NCBI RefSeq assembly: GCF_016432865.1
Contig: NC_067400.1
Location: 612,932,001 to 612,996,000 of the forward strand
Source: Antechinus flavipes
Taxonomy: Eukaryota
Reading direction: 5' to 3'
DNA length: 64,000 bases
Of the stretch, positions 4,261 to 38,192 are shown piece after piece; the first letter of the stretch is position 1, and each line of letters opens with the position of its first letter. The translations under genes and the position numbers were made by a program. The notes under the pieces were generated by a model, which saw only the letters and a program-made list of their open reading frames with translations, was not told the DNA's origin and made no database searches.

Positions 4261-4602
4261 AGTTCAGTAAGAGTCTTGGATAGAGGAAAGATTTGGAGGA
4301 AATTGATAGGGTAAAAAAGGGGAGAAGGAGGAAGCTGAGAGTAAAAGATTGGAGGGGAGCCAGAGGAAAAAGGGAGAGATGCGCTGAAGGAGGAGTGCCG
4401 GCATAGGAAGCTCCAAGGGAGAAAGAAGGGAAGAAAAAGGGGGCGCGGGGGAGTATGGGCAGGGGCAGGGTGGAAGTCTGAAAGGGGGATGAGCCAGGAA
4501 GAGGCCGCGAGGAGGGAAGATGCGCCCCAACCGGGGTGAGCCCAAGAGCTGCTTCTTTGTGGAATGATTTCTTTCCAGGCTCCCTTAGGCTGGACCTTGC
4601 TC

Positions 4603-4752
4603 TTTCCGTTTCCCTCTCCCGGTACCCGCCCTTTCAAGGTAAGAACCTTGCAGACACACCTGGCCCCGTCCAAGCCTTTCGCAGCGAGATTTTACGAATC
4701 TCTTTCCATTTTTCATACATCAGGGGAATCTCCGGCTTGGCCGCTTAAAAGT
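4603..4752 (+). promoter_or_regulatory. IFN-lambda copy 1 proximal promoter: IRF site, NF-kB site, TATA-like box
   Basis: TTTCCGTTTC (4603-4612; reverse GAAACGGAAA, IRF-E), GGGAATCTCC (4724-4733; NF-kB consensus GGGRNNYYCC) and TTAAAA (4745-4750), all upstream of ATG 4805. The NF-kB and TATA-like motifs are also present in copies 2 and 3. Confidence 0.7.
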
Positions 4753-4804: not shown

Positions 4805-6139
4805 ATGATGCTTCGGCAGGCTCTCCCCTTGCTGCTTTCTGCCCTGATGTCAGGAGCGATGTCGAAGTCCCTGGCCCCGACTCCCAACAGCCTTCCCCCC
4901 GAGAGGAGCTGCCAGATGAGCCAGTTCAAGTCTCTTTCGCCTCGGGAGCTGGAAGCCTTCAAGGTGGCCCAGAATGCCTACGTAAGTTCCTGGAAGGCTT
5001 TTTGTACTCCACTCCTGCCACCTCCCACTTCCCGGGAAAGGGGTGGGGGACGGGGGTGGGGTCTAACCTCGATCTCTTTTACTGTCCTCCAATACTCATC
5101 TCTCGCACTTAGGTCTAACGTTGATCCTTCCTTCTTGAGCTCTGTCCCTTTCTGTGTTTCTAATCTCCGTCCTACATCGCAAGGACCTAGAAGGGTCACA
5201 AGCCTTTAACGTCTTCCTCTTCATCCCCTCAAGGAGAAGACCATGCTTCAGACGGAGAGGAAATGTAGCTCCAGATTCTTCCACAGAAACTGGGACCTTC
5301 GGCAGCTGCCGGTAAGAAGGGGCGCTCCCCACCTGTCAGTCCCATATCATCTTTCTCCAAAATCTGTCGCATCTCCATTTCTCTCCCCCTTCTGTCGGTC
5401 CTCCCCCCGTCTCTTCCGCTGTCCCCTTCATCAGCCTCTCCCTCACAACGCCTCTCATCTCTCCCCTCACAGCTATCAGTTCGGCCCGTGCTCTTAGAGG
5501 CTGAGCTGAAATTGACTCTGGAGGTCTTGAAAGCCGTAACCAAGCCGGAGTTGGACAGCGTTCTGGCTCAGCCCCTACAAACGCTCAGCCACATCCACCA
5601 AGAGATCCAAAGCTGTGTGAGTACCGGAGGGTGGGCGGGGCTTCCCTGGACCAATGGGTATGGAGCTGTTCCCTGTCTCTCAGGTGCCTGGTTCCTTTGC
5701 AGTGAGGCTGAGAGACTGCAATACCTGGATCTCTCCTCTCCCCACCCATCAAACGCCTGGGTTCCCTGCGCTTTTATCAAGTCCACTCTCTCCCTACACA
5801 GGTGACTTCCCAGCCCTCTAAAGAACACAGGCTTCCAGGACGCCTGAAGAATTGGCTGAACAAATTCAGTGAGGCCAGAAAGGTAAGTTAGAAAAGCTTC
5901 AGATCTACAACTAGCACCTGGGGATCCAAGGGAGGAGTCAGAGGGGACCCCAGAGTCTGGGCAGCAAGAGACTCTGTCTCCCTCTGAGGGACTCAGGATT
6001 CCCCGGAGGACACTTACCCCTGTGTCTATTCTCTTCTCTTCAGGAGCCTCACAATTGCCTCGAAGCATCCATCATGCTCAATCTCTTCCGACTCTTGCTC
6101 CAAGACCTCCGATGTGTAGCCTATGGGGACCTATGTTGA
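4805..6139 (+). CDS. IFNL3: Interferon lambda (IFNL2/3-like), copy 1, intact, 191 aa
   Basis: Exons 4805-4981, 5234-5311, 5473-5616, 5802-5882, 6044-6139, all GT-AG and phase 0. Protein MMLRQALPLLLS...SCQMSQFKSLSPRELEAF...WDLRQL...LEAELKLTLEVL...CLEASIMLNLFRLL..DLRCVAYGDLC has a signal peptide and six Cys matching the three IFNL2/3 disulfides, with no N-glycosylation sequon. AATAAA at 6304-6309. One-to-one orthology to a specific human paralog is not resolvable. Confidence 0.97.
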
Positions 6140-10800: not shown

Positions 10801-12695
10801 ACTGCATGGTCTCTTCGTTTGTCCAGGAAGGTCAAGGGCTGTTATCCGAGTCTGAATGTTGAGGAATGCAAAGAGCACTATCAAAGTCTTTTTGTCCTAT
10901 TCTGGATGGTTGCAGAGGGAGACACTATAGTAGGTATTGGGTCTTGTGAGATGTCACGGAGGCAAACTTTCTGACAGATTGAGAAGTAGTCAGAAGAGGC
11001 ATTTTTCATAAGTCTCTCCTCAGTCTCCTGGCTTGACACTTTGGTGCGTTGGCCCATTTTAATTACCCCAACTGAAAAAGTCTTACCAGCTCTCTTCTCC
11101 TTTTCCTTCCCCACAGGTTACAGCAGGAATTCTCCCAGGAGGATCCCATTCACGAACAGCTCTCAAGCACTGCTGCTGCTGCTGCTGCTTCTTTGTTTCT
11201 TATGATTCGGGTGCCTCACGCTGGGCGCCATTTGTTCCTGAAGCCTCCTGTTAGTGGCTGCTGGGGATCTACTTCTGACCATCAGAATAGATCCTTTCAT
11301 GTGAGTGGATGATATCAATACAAAGAGACTGAGAGGCAGTTGCAATCTCCGATTTCACTCCTTTTCCTCTTTTGCCTCCAATTGATTTCATTCCCAATCC
11401 ACAAACAACATCTGTGTCAATAAAAGCTGATTTGCAATTGCTTCAGTTATGTTAGGATTCACCGTTGTGGGGGCTTTCTGGAGAACTGACCTGCCCCTTC
11501 CCACTCAGGCACAATCCTTAACAGTTCCCCGTTTTTTGTTTTGTTTCCATTGCTTCAAGCAACAGGTTATTTTAGCTTTCTAGAGAAATTCCATGGTCTC
11601 TTCAAAGATGAAGAATGATAACTGGTCGGGCTGTGATGTGTAATTGGACATACAGTGTATGAAACTGGTTTTGCAGTATACCTATTTTGTACATCCATTG
11701 CTAATAGACGAAGAGCTGGGTCGATAATTGTAAAGGAAAAAGAAAGCAGAAACAATCGCTTTTGGGAAATTACACTATTATTTTCATAACTTTAACCTTC
11801 TCCCAGAAAAAAAAGGCGCCCAAGAACAGTAACATTTATATGTTTATAAGAAGTGCAAAACAATTTACATACATTGCTTTGATTCTCCCCAAAACTTTGT
11901 GAATAAAGTGTTACAAATATTATTGCCTCCATTTTATACACGAGAACTAAAGCAGAGAGAAATTAAAGTTTGCTCTAGTTCACACAGATTTCCAGAGGAG
12001 GAGATATTTGGCTAACGAGTCACTGGGTAGAGGGGCAGCTCGATGGCAGTGGATAGAGCACCGGCCCTAGAGACAGGCTGACCTGAGTTCAGATTCAGCC
12101 TCAGACACTTAACATTTCCTACCTGTGTGGGCTATTGACTTAACTCCAATCGTCTCTGTACAAAGAGAAAAGTTCAGTAAGAGTCTTGGATAGAGGAAAG
12201 ATTTGGAGGAAATTGATAGGGTAAAAAAGGGGAGAAGGAGGAAGCTGAGAGTAAAAGATTGGAGGGGAGCCAGAGGAAAAAGGGAGAGATGCGCTGAAGG
12301 AGGAGTGCCGGCATAGGAAGCTCCAAGGGAGAAAGAAGGGAAGAAAAAGAAGGGTTATGGGCAGAAGTCTGAAAGGGGGATGAGCCAGGAAGAGGCCGCG
12401 AGGAGGGAAGATGCGCCCCAACCGGGGTGAGCCCAAGAGCTGCTTCTTTGTGGAATGATTTCTTTCCAGGCTCCCTTAGGCTGGACCTTGCTCTTTCCGT
12501 TTCCCTCTCCCGGTACCCGCCCTTTCAAGGTAAGAACCTTGCAGACACACCTGGCCCCGTCCGAGCCTTTCGCAGCGAGATTTTACGAATCTCTTTCCAT
12601 TTTTCATACATCAGGGGAATCTCCGGCTTGGCCGCTTAAAAGTGCGGGGATGAAGCGGTCTCCTGAGACACTTGCAGCCTCATCTCTCCAAGGCC

Positions 12696-14030
12696 ATGAT
12701 GCTTCGGCAGGCTCTCCCCTTGCTGCTTTCTGCCCTGATGTCAGGGGCGATGTCGAAGTCCCTGGCCCCGACTCCCAACAGCTTTCCCCCCGAGAGGAGC
12801 TGCCAGATGAGCCAGTTCAAGTCTCTTTCGCCTCGGGAGCTGGAAGCCTTCAAGGTGGCCCAGAATGCCTATGTAAGTTCCTGGAGGGCTTTTTGTACTC
12901 CACTCCTGCCACCTCCCACTTCCCGGGAAGGGGGTGGGGGGCGGGGGTGGGGTCTAACCTCGATCTCTTTTACTGTGCTCCAATACTCATCTCTCGCACT
13001 TAGGTCTAACGTTGATCCTTCCTTCTTGAGCTCTGTCCCTTTCTGTGTTTCTAATCTCCGTCCTACATCGCAAGGACCTAGAAGGGTCACAAGCCTTTAA
13101 CGTCTTCCTCTTCATCCCCTCAAGGAGAAGACCATGCTTCAGACGGAGAGGAAATGTAGCTCCAGATTCTTCCACAGAAACTGGGACCTTCGGCAGCTGC
13201 CGGTAAGAAGGGGCGCTCCCCACCTGTCAGTCCCATATCACCTTTCTCCAAAATCTGTCGCATCTCCATTTCTCTCCGCCTTCTGTCGGTCCTCCCCCAG
13301 TCTCTTCCCCTGTCCCCTTCATCAGCCTCTCCCTCACAACGCCTCTCATCTCTCCCCTCACAGCTGTCAGTTCGGCCAGTGCTCTTAGAGGCTGAGCTGA
13401 AATTGACTCTGGAGGTCTTGAAAGCCGTAACCAAGCCGGAGTTGGACAGCGTTCTGGCTCAGCCCCTACAAACGCTCAGCCACATCCACCAAGAGATCCA
13501 AAGCTGTGTGAGTACCGGAGGGTGGGCGGGGCTTCCCTGGACCAATGGGCATGGAGCTGTTCCCTGTCTCTCAGGTGCCTGGTTCCTTTGCAGTGAGGCT
13601 GAGAGACTGCAATACCTGGATCTCTCCTCCCCCCACCCATCAAACGCCTGGGTTCCCTGCGCTTTTATCAAGTCCACTCTCTCCCTACACAGGTGACTTC
13701 CCAGCCCTCTAAAGAACAAAGGCTTCCAGGACGCCTGAAGAATTGGCTGAACAAATTCAGTGAGGCCAGAAAGGTAAGTTAGAAAAGCTTCAGATCTACA
13801 ACTAGCACCTGGGGATCCAAGGGAGGAGTCAGAGGGGACCCCAGAGTCTGGGCAGCAAGAGACTCTGTCTCCCTCTGAGGGACTCAGGATTCCCCGGAGG
13901 ACACTTACCCCTGTGTCTATTCTCTTCTCTTCAGGAGCCTCACAATTGCCTCGAAGCATCCATCATGCTCAATCTCTTCCGACTCTTGCTCCAAGACCTC
14001 CGATGTGTAGCCTATGGGGACCTATGTTGA
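12696..14030 (+). CDS. IFNL3: Interferon lambda (IFNL2/3-like), copy 2, intact, 191 aa
   Basis: Exons 12696-12872, 13125-13202, 13364-13507, 13693-13773, 13935-14030. There are six CDS nucleotide differences from copy 1: four silent, plus L30F and H142Q. Confidence 0.97.
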
Positions 14031-20000: not shown

Positions 20001-20377
20001 TTTCCTACCTGTGTGGGCTATTCACTTAACCCCAATCGTCTCTGTACAAAGAGAAAAGTTAATTAAGAGATTTGGATACAGGAAAAATTTGGAGGAAATT
20101 GATAGGGCAAAAAAGGGGAGAAGGAGGAAGCTGAGAGTAAAAGATTGGAAGGGAACCAGAGGAAAAAGGGAGAGATGCACTGGAGCAGGAGTGCCGGCAG
20201 AGAAAGATCTAAGGGACAAAGAAGGGAAGAAAAAGAAGGGTTATGGGCAGAAGTCTGAAAGGGGGAGAGGGCCCTCGAGGAGGGAAGATACACCCCACCC
20301 GGGGCATGAACTGCTGCTTTTGTATAACCACTGGCTACAAGACCACTTAACAGCCAGTCCTTGGGCTGAATCTTGCT

Positions 20378-20395
20378 CTTTCAGTTTCCCTTTCC
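20378..20395 (+). promoter_or_regulatory. Perfect ISRE in IFN-lambda copy 3 promoter
   Basis: tttcAGTTTCCCTTTCC (core 20383-20395) fits AGTTTCNNTTTCY. Copies 1 and 2 read tttcCGTTTCCCTCTCC at the homologous site. Confidence 0.7.
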
Positions 20396-20889
20396 TAGTA
20401 CCCACCCTTTTTACACCTGGCCCCGCCCCTTTCCCAGCTAGATTTTTATAATCCCTTTCCATTTTTCAGACATCAGGGGAATCTCCGGCTTGGTCGCTTA
20501 AAAGTGCGGGGATGAAGCGGTCTCCTGAGACACTTGCAGCCTCATCTCTCCAAGGCCATGATGCCTCCGCAGGCTCTCCCCTTGCTGCTTTCTGCCCTGA
20601 TGTCAGGGGCGATGTCGAAGTCCCTGGCCCCGAATCCCAACAGCCCTCCCCCCGACAGGAGCTGCCAGATGAGCCAGTTCAAGTCTCTTTCGCCTCGGGA
20701 GCTGGAAGCCTTCAAGGTGGCCAAGGATGCCTATGTAAGTTCCTGGAGGGCTTTTTGTTCTCCACTCCTGCCACCTCCCACTTCCCGGGAAAGGGGTGGG
20801 GGGCGGGGGTGGGGTCTAACCTCGATCTCTTTTAATGTGCTCCCAATACTCATCTCTCGCACTTAGGTCTAACGTTGATCCTTCCTTCT

Positions 20890-21427
20890 TGTGGGGAATA
20901 GATAAGGTGAAGAACTTACAGGAATGTATGAATTCTTTTTCTGTATTTTATTATTTCTGTGTCTCCCCTATGACCTGTATATGTGCAGGCTCATATCTAC
21001 TTGAGCCTTGGCCAGCTAGAAACATATTTACTTAACCTGAACTGATGACATTTATTGGTATTTGACATTTATCAATATTTAGTCTATTAGCTGGACCACT
21101 GTCTGCTTGATTAAGCCTGAAGGCCTGACTTTGTTTCCCAGAAATCAGGAGATTTCAGGGAAATAGAAACCTTCCATTCCAATCTCCCCAACTAGCAACA
21201 ACCAATTAGATGCCTCCCCCTCCCCTTCTCAATGCTCTCTTACTTGTGATGTAATTTCTTGTATAAAAGCTATGTATTTTTACTACTTCTTTAGCCCTCC
21301 TACCGCGAGCTTATCTTGCGATGGGACGGCTCATCCTCCGGAGGTTTTTCAATAAACAACTTTTCTGCCTTCTACTGAGGGATCTCTGAGTAGTCATTTT
21401 GGGTAAGGGTCTTCTACATCCCTCACA
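20890..21427 (+). mobile_element. 5' LTR (U3 with GAS/ISRE, CCAAT, TATA; poly(A) signal)
   Basis: GAS 21135-21143 and 21154-21162; ISRE-like 21160-21171; CCAAT 21202-21206; TATAAAA 21262-21268; AATAAA 21351-21356. Confidence 0.95.
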
Positions 21428-21429
21428 GA

Positions 21430-21447
21430 TGGGGGCTCGTCCGGGAT
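21430..21447 (+). promoter_or_regulatory. Primer-binding site, tRNA-Pro
   Basis: TGGGGGCTCGTCCGGGAT is the same 18-mer as the MLV-type tRNA-Pro PBS and lies 2 nt after the LTR-terminal CA. Confidence 0.95.
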
Positions 21448-24400
21448 GGGGTCTTTGGGGGAGATGGCTATGTGCACCCCGAACAGGGACAGGCGCCCAC
21501 GGAGTAGTTTTCTCCATGGTCTCTGGCTCTGGGTGAGCAGCCTCCCTCCCCTCTTAGACAACAACCCGAAGCAGGAATACTCAGTGGAATGCAGAATTGA
21601 AGATTGAAAGAAGTAGAGTCCTGATGGCCGGCATTTGCAGCCTGAAAAGAAACATATGTTCTCGAGGTAAAGCTCTTGGGAAGTCTGGGGGTTTATTGGC
21701 TGGGTCGAGGGAGACCCTGAGGGATTAGCCCTCTTAAATTTATTTTTGGTGTGGACTGCTGTTAACCCCAACGATAAAGGACTTTTCCTAAGGAAGCTCT
21801 CGGGTGGCTGTGGGGGCGTGAGGGTAACATAGGGCCTCCGCCTGGGCGTGAGGATAACATAGGGCCTCCGCCAACACCTGGATCAGGTCCAGGGTGGTAT
21901 AGAAGCAGTCCGAAAATTTGTATCAGGACGTTGGCTAGGAAATTCAAGACTGGAATGAACTTCCCAGATATACAAGGGAAGAAAACTGGGAGGATGTATA
22001 TCCCAGGATTATTTGGGTATATCAGACTTAAATCTGTATGTAAAAGGTGAAAATAGAGTTTTGTGAATGTCTGTGTGTATGTCTGCTTTGCATTGCCTTT
22101 GTTCTGTGTTAAAAGTTAGAAAGCTCATAAGAGATAAGAATTCAGCTCTGTGTTACAGGCTTAGAAAAATATCAGGCTGAATTGTGGGAACTGGAATTCA
22201 TTCAGAGTAGTAATTCTTTCAGAGTGGCTCAGAATGTATTGGTCTTAGAATTTGGGAACTAGTTTTGGGCTTCTCAAGAAAAGAAAATCATTTTTCTCTC
22301 TCTCCCTCTGTCTCTGGCAGTGGCTTTGCAGGAAGGGGGAGAGAAGGGGGAAAAATAAAAACATAGATTGAAAGTTTGTAAAGTTTTGAGAAAAATAGAA
22401 GAACAGTGGCTATCGCTCCTGTAAACAAGGAGCCTGTTATCAGGACTCAGCCAGAGAAAAAAATTCTCAAGGTAAAGCAAGGATTGGTGCTTAACTCTTT
22501 CCTGGTTACTAAAGAAAAGACATGGGAATAAAGTATCTAGGTAAATTTTAGGAAATTTCACAAACTGAAGTACTGGTTAATTTTAAAATAACTTTAAATT
22601 AGTGTGTGTGTTAAGATTGGAAAATTTAAGATCAGAAATAAGAAACTGCAGATATTGGAAGGGAGTAATAAATATAGAGTAAGAGAGGTAAATAGTTGAA
22701 CACAGGGGCGTAATGACCTGTTGGACCTGTGGGAAAACTAGGCATACTTCTAAAGAAAAAATTTGCAGGAAAAGAAAGAAAAATCATCATTAGTAAATTT
22801 GCCTTCATGGAATTAGAGAACAGAAAGTTTAAGAAGATTAAACTGGGTAATTGTTTGCAATATTTGATTAAGAGTTTTGGGAATTTACTATATTTTAAAG
22901 AGGTACTATAATTTTGAAATTGAAATAAAATTAAAATTGGGGGAAATAATTTACTGTTGCCTTACACATGTTAGATTTATTCTGAATATAAAATCTTAAG
23001 AATTTTTCGAATATTGTGGCCTTTACAACTGAAGAGAAAAACTTTTCTTTTTTTTATTATTTGGTTGGACTTCAAATTGAAATATAGGTTATTAAACAAA
23101 ATGCCAGTAGCTTACCTTAGGGGGAGCTTGTGTTTGTATCTCCCTACTTAAATGGTATGTTGCTTTTTAAAAGTATTGAGTAATTTGTAAACTATATTAT
23201 AAGTTTTATGAAATTTGATTCAAAATTAATTGTGAATCTTGAAGTTTAAAGTTTAAAAAAAGATGATTTAAAGACAAGGGAAAAGAGATTGATTTACAAA
23301 AGCAATTAATAGTTTAAATAGAGCATCTAGTCGGAAGGATTTTTGGTTTAGGAGTGTTTAAAGTATGTAATAAATTTTGAGCAAGTAAGCATTGGGAAGA
23401 GAGAGAGACAGAGAGATGGGATAGGAGAATGAAGGTAATTTAAGAAGGATTGATTAGTAGAAACAAATGATTTCAAGAAGTCGTCAGTGGGAAAAAGAAG
23501 GAACTGGTTGGAAAGGGTAGTCACAGAGAGATGGATGTGAGAAGGGATGTGTTTTTGCGGGAGGAGAGAAAGCAAGCAGCAGGGGAAAGCGGCAGCCGCT
23601 TGGTTCCTTTGGCTGAAGAAAACAAATGGTTATTTAAAGAGACAAATTGCTCTTACAAGATGTTAACTGATTGAATATTTGTTTCTTTAGATACATAATG
23701 GTTATGAATATTAAAGAATATGATCAGAAATGTGGTATATAGTTTGAAAGGGTTATTTCAAAAAGTTTAATTGATGTTTTCAAGAACTTTTCAGATTCTT
23801 TTTATGTGAAAATAGGAAGTTTTAATTAACTGTATTGATGCCAATTATCTGAAATGGGACTTTAAGGATAATAGCTTTTGCCTTCTTCCTTTTGAAAATG
23901 TTTTTGTTGTGAACCATATGTAGTTTGGGATTTTTCTGTATATTGGGTATTTTAAAAGCAAAATGATTGGTATATTAAATGTATTCAAGATGCAACATCT
24001 ACTTGGGTATATAAGAATTGTGTGAATTTTCTGGGATAAATTTCTTACTGTTATTGATATAAGGTCATGGTAAATAACTGAGATTTATTTGAAACTTTGA
24101 AGACAAAATTCTTTGGGCTTGTAATTAATGCTATTTGGAAGTTTTAAAGCTCCACTCTTCAGTGTGCTGAAGATTGAGTTTTAACTGCTTATATTATGTT
24201 ATAGTTATGTTCTTGCATTTTTTCCTCCTGTGACTGATTTCTATGATCAGAACAATAGTTAATAAGAACTGTTAATGTAATTCAAATATGTCATACCTTG
24301 CTGTTTCCAATCTGGTTATATGTAATCATTATATCCTAAATACTTAGGCAAATAAGTATTTAGCCTGGTCATTTGTCTGTTACTGGATATTTGTGTTTTA

Positions 24401-26413
24401 TTTTTAAAATTTTTTTTTTTAATGATAAGAGGACAATTTACAATTGTCTGTGAAACCTAACTGCTATTTATTGGAACTATAGCTGTCTGCCTGTCCTGTG
24501 AAGCAAGCTTATTCCTTCACACAGGAACTGCTGGCCAATCTATACTGGCCTCCCCACATATTGTTGCAGGTCCAGACTATTCTAACTTTGTTAGATTTAG
24601 TTTTTTTTTTGTTTTTCTAGATTTTGGTCAAATTACAGATTATTGAATCTCTTCTGAGACATGGATCGGCCCATCTGAAGCTTATATTGACACCACACCC
24701 ACACCCCTGCATGGATTGAGCACTTTCGCCCATTTCTCAGCCTGAAGCAGCTAAGATCGAGACCATCGCCAGTGCTCCTGATGTAATTTGGACTGATATG
24801 GGGGAAGTGGGAAAGTGGTTGATGAATTATTGTTAAAATTACAACTCTATTACTAGAGTTAGAAAAAAAATGCAAATATTACTGTGTGTTTAAGATTTGG
24901 GATGGAAATTATTCAAAATGGTAACTATTGCTGTTAAGGAAGTTATAATATGTTTATAATATCTATGTTCACTTCAGAATATGTAATTGTTTAAGGTATT
25001 TGATTTGATTTGATTTGATTTGATTGATTTTAGGAAACTCCTCCTGTACTAGACTGTTATGTATGTAGGAACTTTAATTCACTCTTGGGATTTATATGTG
25101 GATGGTTATTTGACTATTTATTATTATTATTTTTTGGATGATTCCTTTCCATGAGGAAAAAAAAAGGGAGAGGAAGAGATAGGGAACTAGAGAAACTGGT
25201 GGATTTTTCTCAAAATACCTAAAAGAGTGGGAACCCTTAGTTTTCTTTCACTTTTGCCTTACGTACTTCTGCCCCACCCCCTATACCACCAGTTCAGATT
25301 GAATTGGAAGTCCTTAAACAATCCTTTTTGTTTTTACTATGTTTTAGCTTTGAAATCCCTTATTCTGTGGAATTGCCCTGGCAGACTCAGTTTTGGGAAC
25401 TATTCTGTTTTAAAGAAATCTCTAAGATAAAGACACTTGTCTTGGGACTGGCAATCTCCAGCCCTGTAACCCCAGTTTCTTAACTGGTACCTCAGCATTT
25501 TTAATAACATTGCCCTTTTGAGATCAAGCCTCTAAAGTTTGGGGTTTGCCTGCCTTCATGTTCTAACTGTGCATGCTCTGATAGCTCTGCTCAGAAATCT
25601 GTATTCTAGTAGCAGCCCTGTCTGTCCCCCTGAGTGGGGACAGGTGGAGCTACACTAAGCCTCACCCTTCTCCCCTGGAGTGGGTTGCCCCTCTGAATGG
25701 GCAGCATGACTGTCTCGAGCCCTGCTACTCCCTCTATAAGCAGAAGCTGAGTTAAGTGCACAAATGACTGCAGACCCCCTAACACAGTGAACTGTCCATC
25801 TCAAACTGGATTCTCTGACTGAGATGAGGGCCTTTGTACTGCTGATAACTCTGGGGTTGTCAGGAAGAGACTTGTCCTTGCCATAAGTCCTTGCATTTTC
25901 TAGTTTCATTTTGATTTATTTGCCTCACATTGGATTGGTAAAAATTATGGTGCTGAGACCTCCCAGGTATCTTAGGGAGGTAATTCAATAATTCAAATAT
26001 TCAGAAGAAGAGTGTGTAATGTTGTGCCTCAGTTTCCCTAGGTTGTCATCTTTATTTATCTTTGTATTTTTATGTTTGCCAAATGCCAATCTGTTCTGTG
26101 ATAACTGTTTCTAAGATAGTTGGTGGAAGCAATTTTTATGGTATGAACTTATTGCAGTCAATGGTATTATCCTGTTGCTGCTATGTCTATCCTGTATAAT
26201 TACATTAGTAACCAGAATAGTTCAGTGGTCCCTATCAAAATATTGCATACAGAAAATGCTATTAAAATGATGATTCTTCAGAGAAAAGACTGGAATGTAT
26301 TAAAGAGGGATGATCTTGATTGTGAACTTGATAAACAATGTATAGATATATTAACTGATTTTGAAAAGTGTGTAAGTTCTTCATAGAAATGTGATAAAAA
26401 TCATTTACATATT

Positions 26414-26425
26414 AGAAGGGGGGAG
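26414..26425 (+). promoter_or_regulatory. Polypurine tract
   Basis: AGAAGGGGGGAG immediately 5' of the 3' LTR. Confidence 0.85.
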
Positions 26426-26426
26426 C

Positions 26427-26964
26427 TGTGGGGAATAGATAAGGTGAAGAACTTACAGGAATGTATGAATTCTTTTTCTGTATTTTATTATTTCTGTGTC
26501 TCCCCTATGACCTGTATATGTGCAGGCTCATATCTACTTGAGCCTTGGCCAGCTAGAAACATATTTACTTAACCTGAACTGATGACATTTATTGGTATTT
26601 GACATTTATCAATATTTAGTCTATTAGCTGGACCACTGTCTGCTTGATTAAGCCTGAAGGCCTGACTTTGTTTCCCAGAAATCAGGAGATTTCAGGGAAA
26701 TAGAAACCTTCCATTCCAATCTCCCCAACTAGCAACAACCAATTAGATGCCTCCCCCTCCCCTTCTCAATGCTCTCTTACTTGTGATGTAATTTCTTGTA
26801 TAAAAGCTATGTATTTTTACTACTTCTTTAGCCCTCCTACCGCGAGCTTATCTTGCGATGGGACGGCTCATCCTCCGGAGGTTTTTCAATAAACAACTTT
26901 TCTGCCTTCTACTGAGGGATCTCTGAGTAGTCATTTTGGGTAAGGGTCTTCTACATCCCTCACA
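26427..26964 (+). mobile_element. 3' LTR
   Basis: No mismatch to the 5' LTR on line-by-line visual comparison. GAS at 26672-26680 and 26691-26699. Confidence 0.95.
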
Positions 26965-28429
26965 TTCTTGAGCTCTGTCCCTTTCTGTGTTTCTAACCTC
27001 TGTCCTACATCGCAAGGACCTAGAAGGGTCACAAGCCTTTAGCGTCTTCCTCTTCATCCCCTCAAGGAGAAGACCATGCTTCAGACGGAGAGGAAATGTA
27101 GCTCCAGATTCTTCCACAGAAACTGGGACCTTCGGCAGCTGCCGGTAAGAAGGGGCGCTCCCCACCTGTCAGTCCCATATCACCTTTCTCCAAAATCTGT
27201 CGCATCTCCATTTCTCTCCCCCTTCTGTCGGTCCTCCCCCGTCTCTTCCCCTGTCCCCTTCATCAGCCTCTCCCTCACAACGCCTCTCATCTCTCCCCTC
27301 ACAGCTGTCAGTTCGGCCCGTGCTCTTAGAGGCTGAGCTGAAATTGACTCTGGAGGTCTTGAAAGCCGTAACCAAGCCGGAGTTGGACAGCGTTCTGGCT
27401 CAGCCCCTACAAACGCTCAGCCACATCCACCAAGAGATCCAAAGCTGTGTGAGTACCGGAGGGTGGGCGGGGCTTCCCTGGACCAATGGGCATGGAGCTA
27501 TTCCCTGTCTCTCAGGTGCTTGTGTCCCTTGCAGTGAGGCTGAGAGACTGCAATACCTGCATCCCCCCTCCCCCCACCCATCAAATGCCTTGGTCCTCTT
27601 CGCTTTTATCAAGTCCACTCTCTCCCTACACAGGTGACTTCCAGCCCTCTAAAGAACACAGGCTTCCAGGACGCCTGAAGAATTGGCTGAACAAATTCAG
27701 TGAGGCCAGAAAGGTAAGTTAGAAAAGTTTCAGATCTACAACTAGCACCTGGGGGTCCAAGGGAGGAGTCAGAGGGGACCCCAGAGTCTGGGCAGCAAGA
27801 GACTCTGTCTCCCTCTGAGGTACTCAGGATTCCCCGGAGGAACTTATCCCTGTGTCTCTTCTCTTCAGGAGCCTCACAATTGCCTCGAAGCATCCATCAT
27901 GCTCAATCTCTTCCGACTCTTGATCCAAGACCTCCGATGTGTAGCCTATGGGGACCTATGTTGAAGATCCAGACTGAGCCTGAAGTCTGAACCTGGACTT
28001 TAGCACTCCAAACTTTATTTATTGACCAACATAATTTATTCTAACTTATTTATTCCCTCCACCCCCAACATAATGTATTCTAACTTATTTATTCTCTCCA
28101 CCAATTTATTCTAGTTTATTTATTCCCTCCACCCCCAACACTCACATACTTTATATGCCAGAGGATAGTTTTGTGCTTTTGTTATATTTTATTAAATAAA
28201 TAAGGAAACACAAAAAAATTGAAAGTCTGTCGTTTTGTAGCCATTTTCTGTGTAACTATTTGTGGCGATAAGGAATTGTGATTGTGGGTTTCTGTATGTA
28301 GTTGTGAGCAGGTGAGATTGTGCATTTGTGGGTATGTGTATGTAACTGTAGATCTGTGTATAGCTGTGAACAGGGTTATGGATTTGTGAGTGCATTTGTG
28401 GGTTTGTGTATATAGTCACAGGTCTGTGT

Positions 28430-30400
28430 ATGGCTGTGAGCAGGTGAGATTGTGGGTCTGTTTGTGGGTGTGTGTACTTGCAGGTCTGTGTATGGCTGTG
28501 AGCAGGTGAGATTGTGGGTCTGTCGGTGTGTGTGTGTACTTGCAGGTCTGTGTATGGCTGTGAGCAGGTGAGATTGTGGGTCAGTCGGTGTGTGTGTGTA
28601 CTTGCAGGTCTGTGTATGGCTGTGAGCAGGTGAGATTGTGGGTCAGTCGGTGTGTGTGTGTACTTGCAGGTCTGTGTATGGCTGTGAGCAGGTGAGATTG
28701 TGGGTCTGTCTGTGGGTGTGTGTACTTGCAGGTCTGTGTATGGCTGTGAGCAGGTGAGATTGTGGGTCAGTCGGTGTGTGTGTGTACTTGCAGGTCTGTG
28801 TATGGTTGTGAGCAGGTGAGATTGTGGGTCAGTCAGTGTGTGTGTGTATTTGCAGGTCTGTGTATGGTTGTGAGCAGGTGAGATTGTGGGTCAGTCGGTG
28901 TGTGTGTGTGTACTTGCAGGTCTGTGTATGGTTGTGAGCAGGTGAGATTGTGGGTCAGTCGGTGTGTGTGTGTACTTGCAGGTCTGTGTATGGCTGTGAG
29001 CAGGTGGGGTTGTGGGTCTGTCTGTGGGTGTGTGTGTGTACTTGCAGGTCTGTGTATGGCTGTGAGCAGGTGGGGTTGTGGGTCTGTGGGTGTGTGTGTG
29101 TACTTGCAGGTCTGTGTATGGCTGCGAGCAGGTGAGATTGTGGGTCTGTCTGTGGGTGTGTGTGTGTACTGGCAGGTCTGTGTATGGCTGTGAGCAGGTG
29201 AGATTGTGGGTCAGTCGGTGTGTGTGTGTACTTGCAGGTCTGTGTATGGCTGTGAGCAGGTGAGATTGTGGGTCAGTCGGTGTGTGTGTGTGTGTATTTG
29301 CAGGTCTGTGTATGGCTGTGAGCAGGTGAGATTGTGGGTCTGTCTGTGGGTGTGTGTGTGTTACTTGCAGGTCTGTGTATGGCTGTGAGCAGGTGAGATT
29401 GTGGGTCAGTCGGTGTGTGTGTGTACTTGCAGGTCTGTGTATGGTTGTGAGCAGGTGAGATTGTGGGTCTGTCTGTGGTGTGTGTGTGTACTTGCAGGTC
29501 TGTGTATGGCTGTGAGCAGGTGAGACTGTGGGTCAGTCGGTGTGTGTGCGTACTTGCAGGTCTGTGTATGGCTGTGAGCAGGTGAGATTGTGGGTCAGTC
29601 GGTGTGTGTGCGTACTTGCAGGTCTGTGTATGGTTGTGAGCAGGTGAGATTGTGGGTCAGTCGGTGTGTGTGTGTACTTGCAGGTCTGTGTATGGCTGTG
29701 AGCAGGTGAGATTGTGGGTCAGTCGGTGTGTGTGTGTACTTGCAGGTCTGTGTATGGTTGTGAGCAGGTGAGATTGTGGGTCAGTCGGTGTGTGTGTGTG
29801 TACTTGCAGGTCTGTGTATGGTTGTGAGCAGTGAGATTGTGGGTCAGTCGGTGTGTGTGTGTACTTGCAGGTCTGTGTATGGCTGTGAGCAGGTGAGATT
29901 GTGGGTCAGTCGGTGTGTGTGTGTACTTGCAGGTCTGTGTATGGCTGTGAGCAGGTGAGATTGTGGGTCAGTCGGTGTGTGTGTGTACTTGCAGGTCTGT
30001 GTATGGCTGTGAGCAGGTGAGATTGTGGGTCAGTCGGTGTGTGTGTGTACTTGCAGGTCTGTGTATGGCTGTGAGCAGGTGAGATTGTGGGTCAGTCGGT
30101 GTGTGTGTGTACTTGCAGGTCTGTGTATGGCTGTGAGCAGGTGAGATTGTGGGTCTGTCTGTGGGTGTGTGTACTTGCAGGTCTGTGTATGGTTGTGAGC
30201 AGGTGAGATTGTGGGTCAGTCGGTGTGTGTGTGTACTTGCAGGTCTGTGTATGGCTGTGAGCAGGTGAGATTGTGGGTCAGTCGGTGTGTGTGTGTACTT
30301 GCAGGTCTGTGTATGGCTGTGAGCAGGTGAGATTGTGGGTCTGTCTGTGGGTGTGTGTACTTGCAGGTCTGTGTATGGTTGTGAGCAGGTGGGGTTGTGG
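28430..30400 (+). repeat. 62-bp TG-rich minisatellite (VNTR), ~32 copies
   Basis: Unit gagcaggtgagattgtgggtcagtcggtgtgtgtgtgtacttgcaggtctgtgtatggctgt, with a variable internal (TG)n length. Confidence 0.95.
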
Positions 30401-30846
30401 GTTTGTATGTGTGGGTATAAGTTGGACTGTGGGAATGTTGGTGTCTGTGTGCAGTGACCTGGATCTCAGTGTGGGTGCAGCCTGGGTCTCCTTTGACCTT
30501 ACTTGTGGGCTCCACTTTTCTGGGAAGGTAGCACCTGGCCTGGAAGATTAGATTTCAGGGAATAGGGTCTCCAGTCAATCAATATTGGCTGACCCTGAGT
30601 TCCTTGGGCACAGGTGATGGGTGCCGGGGAAACGGTGTGCCCTCTTAGAGCAGCCACTTGGATGCTGGGTTTGGGAGAGCAGGAGGGGTCAAGTTAAAAC
30701 TCCCAGGTGCTGGAATCCCACTGCCTACCCTTGCCCCTTATCTCTTCCTGGCCAGGTTTTCCCCTTCCCACAATCTCTCCCAAGGCTCTTATAAGGAGGT
30801 TGGGGAGCAAGGAGGACAGGTGCCTGTGTGATCTCTGCCTTTAACT

Positions 30847-31257
30847 ATGGCACCATTTCTCTTGCCATCACTCCTCCTGTTGGCCCTTCTGAGGGCCCTG
30901 CCGGGCACCCAGGCCGCGTGTCCCGTCCCTGCCACCCTGAAGCCCGCCGAGGGACCCCGAGAATGTGCCCGCCTTTATGACAAGAGTGACGCCTACTATG
31001 AGAATTGCTGTGCTGGAGCTCAGCTGAGCCTGGAGCCCGGGGTCGACCTGCCGTACCTGCCCTCCGACTGGTACCACAAAGCCTCCTCCCTGGTGGTGGG
31101 TCCCCGCTGTGAGCTCACAGTCTGGTCTCGCTCCGGCAAAGGGGGCAAGACCCGAAAGTTCTCATCCGGAGCCTACCCTCGGCTGGCAGAGTTTCGCCTC
31201 GGAATATTTGGCGATTGGAATAACGCCATAGGGGCTCTCTACTGCAAGTGTTACTAA
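30847..31257 (+). CDS. SYCN: Syncollin, 136 aa (signal peptide, Cys-rich)
   Basis: [15 protein letters not shown]...[36 protein letters not shown]...[25 protein letters not shown]...[18 protein letters not shown] closely matches syncollin. TATAAG at 30790-30795; syntenic position between IFNL and NCCRP1. Confidence 0.97.
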
Positions 31258-36000: not shown

Positions 36001-38192
36001 GTGAAAAATGCAAGAGAGATATGTAATACAGGGCAGAGACTGAGAGGGAGAGAGACAGAGACAGAGACAGAGACAGAGACAGACAGACAGATAGAAAGAG
36101 TGAAAGAGGGAGGGACAGAGGGAGAGACAAGGGCAGAGTATCGGCAACAGAGATGGATCCAGAGGATACATGTGAAAAATGCCAAAGAGATATGTANNNN
36201 NNNNNNNNNNNNNNNNNNNNNNNNNNNNNNNNNNNNNNNNNNNNNNNNNNNNNNNNNNNNNNNNNNNNNNNNNNNNNNNNNNNNNNNNNNNNNNNNNNNN
36301 NNNNNNNNNNNNNNNNNNNNNNNNNNNNNNNNNNNNNNNNNNNNNNNNNNNNNNNNNNNNNNNNNNNNNNNNNNNNNNNNNNNNNNNNNNNNNNNNNNNN
36401 NNNNNNNNNNNNNNNNNNNNNNNNNNNNNNNNNNNNNNNNNNNNNNNNNNNNNNNNNNNNNNNNNNNNNNNNNNNNNNNNNNNNNNNNNNNNNNNNNNNN
36501 NNNNNNNNNNNNNNNNNNNNNNNNNNNNNNNNNNNNNNNNNNNNNNNNNNNNNNNNNNNNNNNNNNNNNNNNNNNNNNNNNNNNNNNNNNNNNNNNNNNN
36601 NNNNNNNNNNNNNNNNNNNNNNNNNNNNNNNNNNNNNNNNNNNNNNNNNNNNNNNNNNNNNNNNNNNNNNNNNNNNNNNNNNNNNNNNNNNNNNNNNNNN
36701 NNNNNNNNNNNNNNNNNNNNNNNNNNNNNNNNNNNNNNNNNNNNNNNNNNNNNNNNNNAGAGAATGGAGAGAAAGAGAGAGAGAGACAGAGAGAGAGACA
36801 GATAGACAGGGACNNNNNNNNNNNNNNNNNNNNNNNNNNNNNNNNNNNNNNNNNNNNNNNNNNNNNNNNNNNNNNNNNNNNNNNNNNNNNNNNNNNNNNN
36901 NNNNNNNNNNNNNNNNNNNNNNNNNNNNNNNNNNNNNNNNNNNNNNNNNNNNNNNNNNNNNNNNNNNNNNNNNNNNNNNNNNNNNNNNNNNNNNNNNNNN
37001 NNTGGGGACAGAGCGCTGGAGAATACATGTGAAAAGTGCCAGAGATAAGTAATACAGGGCAGAGACAGTTGGAGGTAGAGGGAGAGACAGAGACAGAGAA
37101 GAGAGAGGCACAGAGGAAGGGTGGGGGCAGAAGGAGGAATGGGGCAAGACAGCCAGACAAAGGCGGTGAGGGATGACTATTTAGGGATGGAAATTGCCGG
37201 GAAGGAACATTGGGAAAGATCAAACTTGGAGGCAGACGCAAGCACAGGGACAGGGACAGGAACTGGAAAAGATGGAAACGAAGGGAGAGGGAGAGACAGA
37301 GAGAGAAACAGGGGGAGGGGGGGGACACACGTGGGGGGGCGAAAGGGGGTAGGAGAAAGATACAGAGACAGACTGATAGAGACTGACAGAGACAGATGGA
37401 GAGACAAGGGGGGAGAAAGGGGGGGAGGGAGACAGAAGGGGGAGGGAGAGAGAGAAGGGGAGGAACAGAGCGGGGAGAGGGAGAGATAGAGAGAGACAGA
37501 GAGACAGAGACAGAGAGGAGAGAGGGAGGGAGAGGGAAAAAGGGAGAGAAGGGAGGGAGAGAGGGAAAGGGGGAAAGAGACAGAGACTCAGGTGCACACA
37601 CACACAGAAACTGAGATAGAGACAGAGAAACTCAGAGAGAGAAACTGAGACAGAGTCAGAGAGCGCCAGGCGGGGACGGGGACACGGGAATAAAGCCACA
37701 AGCCGCTGAGCCAGGTGCAAGGGTCCGAACGGCTCCCAGAAGCACCGCCAGGGACAGAGGCGCGAGCCTGGGACTGGCGGAGCCCGGCCGGGCGCCCACA
37801 AGCCCTTGCTGCCCGCCGGCCCCGGCCGGTCCCCGGCTCCCGCCACTGTCCCGGTGCAGATCCTCCCGCCCCGCCCCCACTCCCGCACCCTCGGGGTTCG
37901 GGGATCGCAGCAGGTTGCGGTAGAGCGGCCTCCGCACGTAGAGCAGCTTCCAGCTGAGACCCGGGGGCAGATTCAGCTCCGCCCCGGGAGTCCCCCACTC
38001 ATCCAGCAGCAGCTGGCGGGCCCCTTGCTCCGACGGCCCCGGTGAAGGAGGCGCTCCGAGGATGGAGCCCGGGGACAGCGGCGGCGGGGGCGAGGGCGCC
38101 CGTGGGGGGAACGGGGGCGACGGGGGTCTGGGCGGCCCCTGCCCTCCTCCGGCCGCAGGTGCGTCGGGGCCCGTGTCTGCGGCTCCGTCCAT
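33011..38192 (-). CDS. NCCRP1: Non-specific cytotoxic cell receptor protein 1 (FBA-domain protein, FBXO50), 263 aa
   Basis: Exons (minus) 38192-37889, 35362-35303, 35111-35060, 34810-34715, 34582-34444, 33151-33011, GT-AG with consistent phases. Motifs ARQLLLDEWG, RRPLYRNLLRSPNPEGINIYEP, WTVKQQCVDLLAEGLWEELLDDEQP, FEDSRLDVCVYELHVWLLAADRRTV and VSHVFKHYGPGVRFVHFLHK match NCCRP1. Confidence 0.96.
33305..33560 (+). repeat. 111-bp tandem repeat (~2.3 copies) in the last NCCRP1 intron
   Basis: gcattggga recurs at 33331, 33442 and 33553 with near-identical intervening sequence. Confidence 0.8.
34010..34270 (-). mobile_element. MIR/MAR1-like SINE fragments (antisense)
   Basis: cattttacagttgaggaaactgaggc...gacttgttcagggtcacacggctagt is the reverse of the CORE-SINE core. 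Confidence 0.65.
35900..37660. repeat. AG-rich low-complexity / ~170-bp repeat region with two N blocks (36197-36758, 36814-37002)
   Basis: The motif (g)agaatacatgtgaaaa..g...gagata.gtaatacagggcagagac occurs at ~35990, ~36160 and ~37020 around the Ns, among (AGAC)n/(AG)n runs, in NCCRP1 intron 1. Confidence 0.7.

What the first reader, a model, noticed from the sequence alone, without database searches (positions are those of the whole stretch)
21135..21171. LTR U3 carries tandem GAS motifs plus an overlapping ISRE: candidate interferon-inducible enhancer, present twice within IFNL
Seen: TTCCCAGAA (21135-21143) and TTCAGGGAA (21154-21162), both TTCN3GAA, separated by 10 bp. The second overlaps GAAATAGAAACC (ISRE-like, 21160-21171). 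The cassette lies ~100 bp upstream of the LTR TATA and ~580 bp from the copy 3 ATG, and is repeated at 26672-26708. Known: tandem GAS sites favour cooperative STAT binding, and the primate MER41B LTR with tandem GAS acts as an IFN-inducible enhancer. Inference: a convergent marsupial STAT/IRF-responsive LTR family. It could create a feed-forward loop on neighbouring IFNL promoters, or act as an IFN-triggered premature terminator or decoy, and may spread IFN-responsive enhancers genome-wide.
Basis: partly seen in the sequence, partly recalled or inferred. Interest (0 to 1): 0.82.

Follow-up and report, generated by a model that had tools for sequence, protein, structure and literature searches.

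The report
Interferon-type switch in young marsupial retroelement
A recently inserted, non-coding retrovirus-like element in a carnivorous marsupial carries a well-formed interferon-response switch in its own promoter and has landed inside a spare, broken interferon-lambda gene; the switch looks real, but nothing shows that the host uses it.

Summary
The motifs are real: GAS at 21135-43 and 21154-62 (19 bp centre to centre) and an ISRE at 21158-71. GAS1 equals the core of the Fc-gamma-receptor STAT1 probe (11/11); the ISRE matches the human IFITM1 ISRE at 12 of 14 positions. Such a triple arose in 172 of 3,040,000 simulated LTRs. Corrections: the two GAS sites are the arms of one 13-bp inverted repeat, and 'present twice' only reflects the two identical 538-bp LTRs of one 6,075-bp non-coding class I-like element (4-bp TSD, tRNA-Pro-type PBS) in intron 1 of IFNL copy 3. 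Copy 3 is frameshifted in exon 4; copies 1 and 2 are intact, 8-16 kb away, and have their own IRF and NF-kB sites. Best reading: the element's own cytokine/IFN-inducible U3 enhancer, sitting by accident in a redundant paralogue. It works like MER41B, MER41_BT, RLTR30B and the CAEV GAS; my searches found no marsupial case in print. Binding, induction, family size and any effect on IFNL are untested. Decoy and IFN-triggered terminator models are unlikely.

The parts
21135..21143 (+). GAS1, TTCCCAGAA; with flanks (21134-21144) identical to the core of the Fc-gamma receptor GAS probe used for pSTAT1 EMSA
   Evidence: probe sequence in bioRxiv 10.1101/2021.08.09.455663 methods passage
21154..21162 (-). 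GAS2, TTCCCTGAA on the minus strand; 10 of 11 to the same probe core; weaker site; 19 bp centre to centre from GAS1
   Evidence: 'weaker' is inference from recalled consensus
21158..21171 (+). ISRE, GGGAAATAGAAACC; 12 of 14 to the human IFITM1 ISRE, 11 of 14 to the putative tammar IFITMA ISRE; shares GAA (21160-62) with GAS2
   Evidence: PMC3424830 passage
21134..21163 (.). 13-bp inverted repeat (12 of 13, 4-nt loop) whose arms are the two GAS sites; the only such repeat in 49,722 non-redundant bases; as RNA a hairpin of modest significance (z -2.0)
26672..26708 (+). same cassette in the 3' LTR
20890..21427 (+). 5' LTR, 538 bp, TG...CA; CCAAT at 21179 and 21202, TATAAAA 21262, AATAAA 21351, splice-donor-like GGTAAG 21402; no CpG in 20890-21290
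26427..26964 (+). 3' LTR, 538 of 538 identical to the 5' LTR
20916..20924 (+). third, looser GAS-like site TTACAGGAA in distal U3
20886..20889 (+). 4-bp target-site duplication TTCT (again at 26965-26968); copies 1 and 2 hold the empty site
21430..21447 (+). primer-binding site, tRNA-Pro type as in MLV-like viruses (assignment recalled, not from a call)
   Evidence: for the sequence
26414..26425 (+). polypurine tract before the 3' LTR
21428..26426 (+). 4,999-bp internal region, AT-rich, no gag/pol/env frame: non-autonomous
   Evidence: 0 of 81 frames with a retroviral family; 0 of 12
20558..27964 (+). IFNL copy 3: exons 20558-20734, 27067-27144, 27305-27448, 27634-27713, 27869-27964; element in intron 1; exon 4 one base short, stop at codon 148
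4805..6139 (+). IFNL copy 1, intact 191 codons, no insertion; ATG 16,330 bp before GAS1
12696..14030 (+). IFNL copy 2, intact 191 codons, no insertion; ATG 8,439 bp before GAS1
20373..20398 (-). native IRF/ISRE element of the copy 3 promoter (shorter versions at 4596-4621 and 12487-12512); NF-kB-like GGGGAATCTCC at 20476-20486, shared by all three promoters
   Evidence: NF-kB label recalled

Best explanation
The cassette is the U3 enhancer of a young, non-autonomous, class I (gammaretrovirus-like) LTR element of a dasyurid-type marsupial. It sits where such enhancers sit, just upstream of two CCAAT boxes and the TATA box (shown). It most likely arose by an inverted duplication of one GAS unit next to an ISRE (inferred from the symmetry). 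IFN-gamma-activated STAT1 dimers would bind GAS1 and, cooperatively, GAS2; type I/III IFN or virus sensing would load ISGF3/IRFs on the ISRE, which overlaps GAS2, so the two states are probably alternatives (inferred). The purpose is the element's own: JAK-STAT/IRF signals switch on LTR transcription. Its place in IFNL copy 3 is an ordinary promoter-proximal insertion, tolerated because copy 3 is a redundant paralogue that was probably already decaying (inferred). Any effect on copies 1 and 2 is a side effect not shown here.
For: Motif quality against published functional elements; spacing 19 bp within the 18-21 bp preferred by induced tandems; rarity 172 of 3,040,000, and 395 of 3,040,000 if the second GAS is given away as free; position in U3; complete provirus anatomy with identical LTRs and empty sites in copies 1 and 2; age below about 0.9-2.8 Myr for assumed rates of 3 to 1 x 10^-9 per site per year; copy 3 has a frameshift plus 4 private amino-acid changes and 0 private synonymous changes, against 0 differences between the LTRs, so most of its divergence predates the insertion. 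Precedent for self-serving use: GAS in CAEV U3 gives IFN-gamma/STAT1 activation (PMC5644649); the MER41 site is read as an ancestral replication strategy (PMC7778262).
Against: No binding or expression data. Patterns were chosen after the fact. The 12/13 inverted repeat by itself is expected about 0.008 times per 538 bp, so a mutational origin without selection is possible. Motif presence predicts activity poorly: under 18% of top-scoring GAS sites were occupied, and 107 of 5,491 MER41_BT copies (1,071 with a GAS) showed inducible activity (PMC9435751). Young LTRs are often silenced, and R/U5 and the leader have CpGs. Class I status rests on PBS, TSD length and layout, not on a polymerase (none found). 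The exon 4 deletion lies in a short C run and could be a sequencing error.
Confidence: 0.62

Rival explanations
1. Cis feed-forward enhancer: the two LTR cassettes act in chromatin on the promoters of IFNL copies 1 and 2 (8.4 and 16.3 kb away), adding a GAS input that makes them IFN-gamma/STAT-responsive and amplifying type III IFN output.
For: Distance is well within enhancer range; LTRs with GAS were shown by CRISPR deletion to regulate bovine IFNAR2 and IL2RB (PMC9435751); human IFN-lambda1 is listed as regulated by AluSx and MLT2B2 LTR NF-kB sites (Thomson 2009 as tabulated in PMC3649676).
Against: The promoters have their own IRF and NF-kB sites; the insertion is very young, may not be fixed, and broke or followed the break of one IFNL copy; only 45 of 5,491 MER41_BT copies were both inducible and within 250 kb of an ISG; no conservation evidence obtainable.
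Confidence: 0.14
2. The cassette is a general STAT3/STAT5 cytokine element (for instance prolactin or IL-6/LIF family signals in mammary gland or germline) rather than an interferon switch.
For: TTCCCAGAA fits the STAT5 and STAT3 consensus as well (recalled); a STAT5 site in the MMTV LTR is a recalled precedent; an element must be expressed in germline to spread.
Against: The ISRE is near-identical to a functional ISG element and has no role in STAT3/5 signalling; GAS2 departs from the STAT5 consensus TTCYNRGAA (recalled) on both strands.
Confidence: 0.1
3. Chance or structural by-product: an inverted repeat made by template switching (or kept as an RNA hairpin in U3) that happens to spell GAS twice, beside a lucky A-rich ISRE match; no STAT/IRF function.
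For: One GAS occurs in 658,007 of 3,040,000 simulated LTRs, and one GAS plus a loose IRF core in 10,342; the repeat folds as a hairpin, 6 of 200 shuffles as stable.
Against: One GAS plus an ISRE of this quality is still only 395 of 3,040,000; both match published functional elements almost exactly; the place is the canonical enhancer slot.
Confidence: 0.11
4. IFN-triggered terminator or STAT decoy that dampens IFNL.
For: Sense orientation with AATAAA at 21351 and five more in the element; IFN-driven LTR transcription could interfere with copy 3 elongation.
Against: Copy 3 cannot make a full protein even if spliced; polyadenylation is not IFN-gated; 31 GAS 9-mers in this window alone make titration by 4-6 sites implausible.
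Confidence: 0.03

Closest known systems
MER41B (primate ERV1 LTR, STAT1-bound IFN-gamma enhancer)
   Same: Class I-type LTR with two GAS in tandem at a spacing favoured by induced STAT1 tandems (21 bp there, 19 bp here; PMC2897888 passages).
   Different: MER41 is old (60-70 Myr, PMC9435751), in thousands of copies, with binding and co-option shown; this is one very young full-length insertion with no data. Here an ISRE overlaps GAS2 and the GAS pair is an inverted repeat. Sequence homology to MER41 was not testable.
MER41_BT (cattle), RLTR30B/RLTR30E (mouse), B2_Mm2 and Bov-A2 SINEs
   Different: All eutherian and shown by ChIP/CUT&RUN and CRISPR; none seen here to lie inside an interferon gene.
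CAEV/SRLV U3 GAS; HERV-K(HML-2) LTR ISREs
   Same: IFN-responsive motifs in a retroviral promoter serving the virus's own transcription (PMC5644649; PMC7778262).
   Different: Lentivirus and betaretrovirus-like, coding-competent lineages; no combined GAS-GAS/ISRE unit described in the passages read.
MEGrv 1-3 (marsupial endogenous gammaretroviruses, PMC11334065)
   Same: Dasyurid class I ERVs, two clades with identical LTRs, i.e. recent activity.
   Different: LTRs 451, 486 and 281 nt and lengths 7.8-8.5 kb with gag/pol/env, against 538 nt, 6.1 kb and no coding frame here; that screen needed retroviral genes and would miss this element.
TE-derived NF-kB enhancer of human IFN-lambda1 (AluSx, MLT2B2; Thomson 2009)
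   Same: Transposable-element input to an IFNL gene (table row in PMC3649676; original not read).
   Different: NF-kB sites upstream of a functional gene; here STAT/IRF sites inside a broken copy.

Membership tests
LTR retroelement / provirus | Two direct LTRs with TG...CA ends and a target-site duplication | tested here: met
   538/538 identical LTRs, TSD TTCT, empty site in copies 1 and 2
LTR retroelement / provirus | PBS after the 5' LTR, PPT before the 3' LTR, TATA and poly(A) signal in the LTR | tested here: met
   tRNA-Pro assignment recalled
Class I ERV (gammaretrovirus-like) | Reverse transcriptase grouping with gamma/epsilonretroviruses | tested here: inconclusive
   No pol detected; only PBS type and 4-bp TSD point to class I (recalled)
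MEGrv 1-3 | gag/pol/env and LTR length of the clade representatives | tested here: not met
   No coding frames; LTR 538 versus 451/486/281 nt; direct sequence comparison not possible
MER41 family | Nucleotide homology to the MER41 consensus | not testable with these tools
IFN-inducible LTR enhancers (MER41B-like, functional class) | Strong GAS and/or ISRE motifs in the LTR | tested here: met
IFN-inducible LTR enhancers (MER41B-like, functional class) | Tandem GAS spacing of 18-21 bp | tested here: met
   19 bp versus PMC2897888
IFN-inducible LTR enhancers (MER41B-like, functional class) | Motif present in the family consensus and many copies, enriched near ISGs | not testable with these tools
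   One insertion only in the window; no marsupial genome collection
IFN-inducible LTR enhancers (MER41B-like, functional class) | Inducible STAT1/IRF binding and reporter activity | not testable with these tools
   needs experiments
Co-opted (exapted) TE enhancer | Host gene depends on it; fixed or conserved under selection | tested here: inconclusive
   Insertion young, host copy broken; dependence of copies 1 and 2 untested

The most novel reading that the evidence does not exclude
A still-spreading, non-coding marsupial LTR family with a symmetric GAS-GAS/ISRE switch that reads all three interferon types has just landed in the interferon-lambda cluster, where it trades one redundant copy for two enhancers that make the remaining IFNL genes STAT-responsive: co-option of an interferon enhancer caught at birth, possibly still polymorphic, and perhaps not by accident if IFN both switches the element on and opens the promoters it inserts near.
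Probability: 0.12. Interest if true: 0.78.

Novelty: new member of a known kind. Interest (0 to 1): 0.4.

Why it matters
IFN-responsive LTRs are known in primates, rodents and cattle, nearly all as old, fixed elements. A marsupial case would extend the convergence to a lineage separated by about 160 Myr (date from PMC3424830), and a very young one with empty-site paralogues beside it gives a built-in control for the open question of whether such motifs serve the element first and the host later. Dasyurid tools exist (recombinant devil IFN-gamma and tumour cell lines, PMC13641905), so the family-level test is cheap if the family is present in that genome. As it stands it is a good motif-level candidate, not a demonstrated regulatory circuit.

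Tried and rejected
Looking for other copies or solo LTRs in the window by blastn (word 7) and nhmmer --max: only the two LTRs. The look-alike GATTTCAGGGAA at 30551-30562 gave no LTR alignment and is treated as unrelated. Retroviral coding remnants: 0 of 81 stop-to-stop frames of >=32 aa and 0 of 12 forward read-throughs with X at stops hit a retroviral Pfam family; three PDB sequence searches gave only chance hits. By eye, about 24650-24770 resembles the end of an integrase and about 26115-26300 an env membrane anchor; the env-like 51-aa frame found nothing among longer proteins and one hit among 1.84 billion representatives that proved a tandem-repeat artefact (P0012), so neither remnant is claimed. 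Rfam: 0 matches in the window. Protein-level tracing of the cassette in relatives was not possible: frames over it are 21-40 aa. An NF-kB reading of GGAGATTTC between the GAS sites did not pass my loose pattern. Chuong 2016 was not held; it is cited only through other papers. Decoy and IFN-gated terminator models rejected as above. The bacterial/archaeal, phage and plasmid collections were not used as they cannot hold a marsupial LTR; viral and metagenome contigs were closed, so relatives there stayed unchecked.

Full report
Observation. The centres of the GAS sites are 19 bp apart. TATAAAA follows at 21262, with CCAAT boxes at 21179 and 21202 in between and AATAAA at 21351. GAS1 lies 577 bp downstream of the copy 3 ATG, in intron 1.

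What carries it. A self-comparison of the window shows two direct repeats identical over 538 of 538 bases, 20890-21427 and 26427-26964, with TG...CA ends, a 4-bp target-site duplication TTCT, a primer-binding site at 21430-21447 and a polypurine tract at 26414-26425. The PBS is the tRNA-Pro type of MLV-like viruses and a 4-bp duplication is typical of them (both recalled). The 4,999-bp interior has no retroviral coding frame: 0 of 81 stop-to-stop frames of at least 32 aa and 0 of 12 forward read-throughs matched a retroviral Pfam family, and PDB and protein-database searches added nothing. It is thus a 6,075-bp non-autonomous LTR element, class I-like by anatomy only. 'Present twice' is what every provirus shows. 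No further copy lies in the window. Identical LTRs bound the age at 0.9-2.8 Myr (95%) for assumed rates of 3 to 1 x 10^-9, unless gene conversion or assembly collapse made them identical.

Where it sits. The window holds three tandem ~7.9-kb units, each with a five-exon IFNL gene (Pfam IL28A in 2 of 2 exons tested), followed by SYCN, an FBA-domain gene (NCCRP1 by position) and PAK4, the order known from the human locus (recalled). Exon 1 of copy 3 is 83% identical to Sarcophilus, 76% to Sminthopsis and Antechinus and 68% to koala IFNL, so the host is dasyurid-like. Copies 1 and 2 encode 191 residues and hold the empty site; copy 3 has an exon 4 one base short and stops at codon 148, 35 nt before the last junction. 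It also has 4 private amino-acid changes and no private synonymous change in the codons compared. Copy 3 differs from copy 2 by 35 substitutions in 1,328 aligned bases while the LTRs differ by none, so most of its separate history predates the insertion; the frameshift more likely came first (inference). The missing base is in a short C run, so an assembly error is not excluded; the gene has 4 one-base indels against copies 1 and 2, in proportion to its substitutions. All three promoters carry an IRF element and an NF-kB-like site; that of copy 3 is the longest.

Is the cassette more than chance? Single GAS 9-mers are not: 31 in the window, and 3,750 of 20,000 LTR shuffles have one. The combination is rare: 0 of 20,000 shuffles had a close pair plus an IRF core; in 3,040,000 Markov sequences trained without the cassettes, 9,592 had a close pair, 1,288 a pair at 18-21 bp, 172 the triple and 9 the triple with an ISRE this strong. 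But the GAS sites are the arms of a 13-bp inverted repeat, 12 of 13 complementary, the only one in 49,722 non-redundant bases and expected about 0.008 times per 538 bp; one duplication gives the second GAS for free. Counting one GAS only, a strong ISRE within 40 bp still occurs in just 395 of 3,040,000, a loose IRF core in 10,342. These patterns were set after the fact. Quality is the better argument: 21134-21144 equals the core of the Fc-gamma receptor probe bound by phosphorylated STAT1 dimers (bioRxiv 10.1101/2021.08.09.455663, methods and results passages), and 21158-21171 matches the human IFITM1 ISRE at 12 of 14 and the putative tammar IFITMA ISRE at 11 of 14 positions (PMC3424830, passages). 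Induced tandem GAS in unique DNA prefer 18-21 bp (PMC2897888, passages).

How it most likely works. Shown: motif identity, spacing, symmetry, U3 position, absence of CpG in U3 and presence in R/U5 and leader. Inferred: STAT1 dimers bind GAS1 and cooperatively the weaker GAS2 after IFN-gamma; ISGF3 or IRF1/3/7 bind the ISRE after type I/III IFN or virus sensing; since GAS2 and the ISRE share three bases these are probably alternative states, giving a promoter that answers to all interferon types. This serves the element: CAEV uses a U3 GAS for IFN-gamma/STAT1 activation (PMC5644649, passages), HERV-K LTRs carry ISREs, and the MER41 site is read as ancestral viral strategy (PMC7778262, passages). 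The insertion 332 bp past the ATG fits the promoter-proximal preference of gammaretroviral integration (recalled) and was tolerated in a redundant copy. I put 0.62 on this whole picture and about 0.75 on the cassette being inducible in a reporter.

Against. No binding or expression data exist here. Fewer than 18% of top-scoring GAS sites were occupied in HeLa cells, and 107 of 5,491 MER41_BT copies showed inducible activity (PMC9435751, passages). A GAS is read by STAT3 and STAT5 too (recalled).

Known or new. IFN-responsive transposable elements are an established, repeatedly convergent class in primates, cattle and mouse (PMC10229128, passages). Searches for a marsupial case or for this locus found none: 4 papers held all terms, 2 listed, one read in passages; 1 paper; its marsupial passages concern placenta; 3 listed; two read in the first part and in passages; 6 listed; one read in passages, reporting two devil IFNL genes. 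The library lacks most subscription papers and I opened no supplements; repeat-library entries and the supplements of PMC11334065 and PMC13641905 could already contain this LTR. The element does not fit MEGrv 1-3 by length or coding content. Homology to MER41 could not be tested, so 'convergent' is likely but unproven. (IFNL feedback) and one search were seen as listings only, apart from the papers named.

Verdict. Observation confirmed; interpretation partly supported. A new member of a known kind, with a neat symmetric GAS-GAS/ISRE design and a suggestive address. Interest 0.4. The bold reading, co-option of an interferon enhancer caught at birth in the IFNL cluster, is not excluded (0.12) and would deserve about 0.78.

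Noticed in passing
window 20373-20398 (-) versus 4596-4621 and 12487-12512: The copy 3 promoter has a longer IRF element (three GAAA half-sites, resembling the ISG15 probe quoted) than copies 1 and 2, although copy 3 is the broken gene.
   Followed up: partly
window 26939-26944 to 27067: The 3' LTR has a splice-donor-like GGTAAG in U5, and exon 2 just downstream has an in-frame ATG: the 3' LTR could drive a leaderless, truncated IFNL copy 3 transcript.
   Followed up: no
window 20782-20791 and the same place in copies 1 and 2; 4987-4995: Intron 1 of all three IFNL copies has TTCCCGGGAA (TTC-N4-GAA, STAT6-type spacing, recalled); copy 1 alone has a TTC-N3-GAA at 4987.
   Followed up: no
window 28303-30402: A 62-bp minisatellite of 33 copies follows copy 3; copies 1 and 2 have only a short related stretch.
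   Followed up: no
window 21814-21872: 30-bp tandem duplication in the element's leader.
   Followed up: no
window 24650-24770 and 26115-26300: By eye like remains of an integrase end and an env membrane anchor; searches did not support either.
   Followed up: yes
window 30518-30562: A second close GAS pair (27-bp gap) about 300 bp upstream of SYCN, whose second site shares 12 bases with the LTR cassette; no LTR homology found.
   Followed up: partly
window 30847-31257: Intact SYCN ORF 4.2 kb downstream of the 3' LTR cassette, same strand: the nearest intact gene to the 3' LTR and another possible target.
   Followed up: no
window 1-20889: IFNL units are about 7.9 kb and 95-97% alike; upstream DNA of copy 3 is closer to copy 2 (1.2%) than its gene body is (2.6%), suggesting patchy gene conversion; the window begins inside a unit, so more copies may lie upstream.
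   Followed up: partly
window 36197-36758 and 36814-37002: Two runs of N (751 bases) inside a GA-rich repeat: the assembly is not gap-free here.
   Followed up: no
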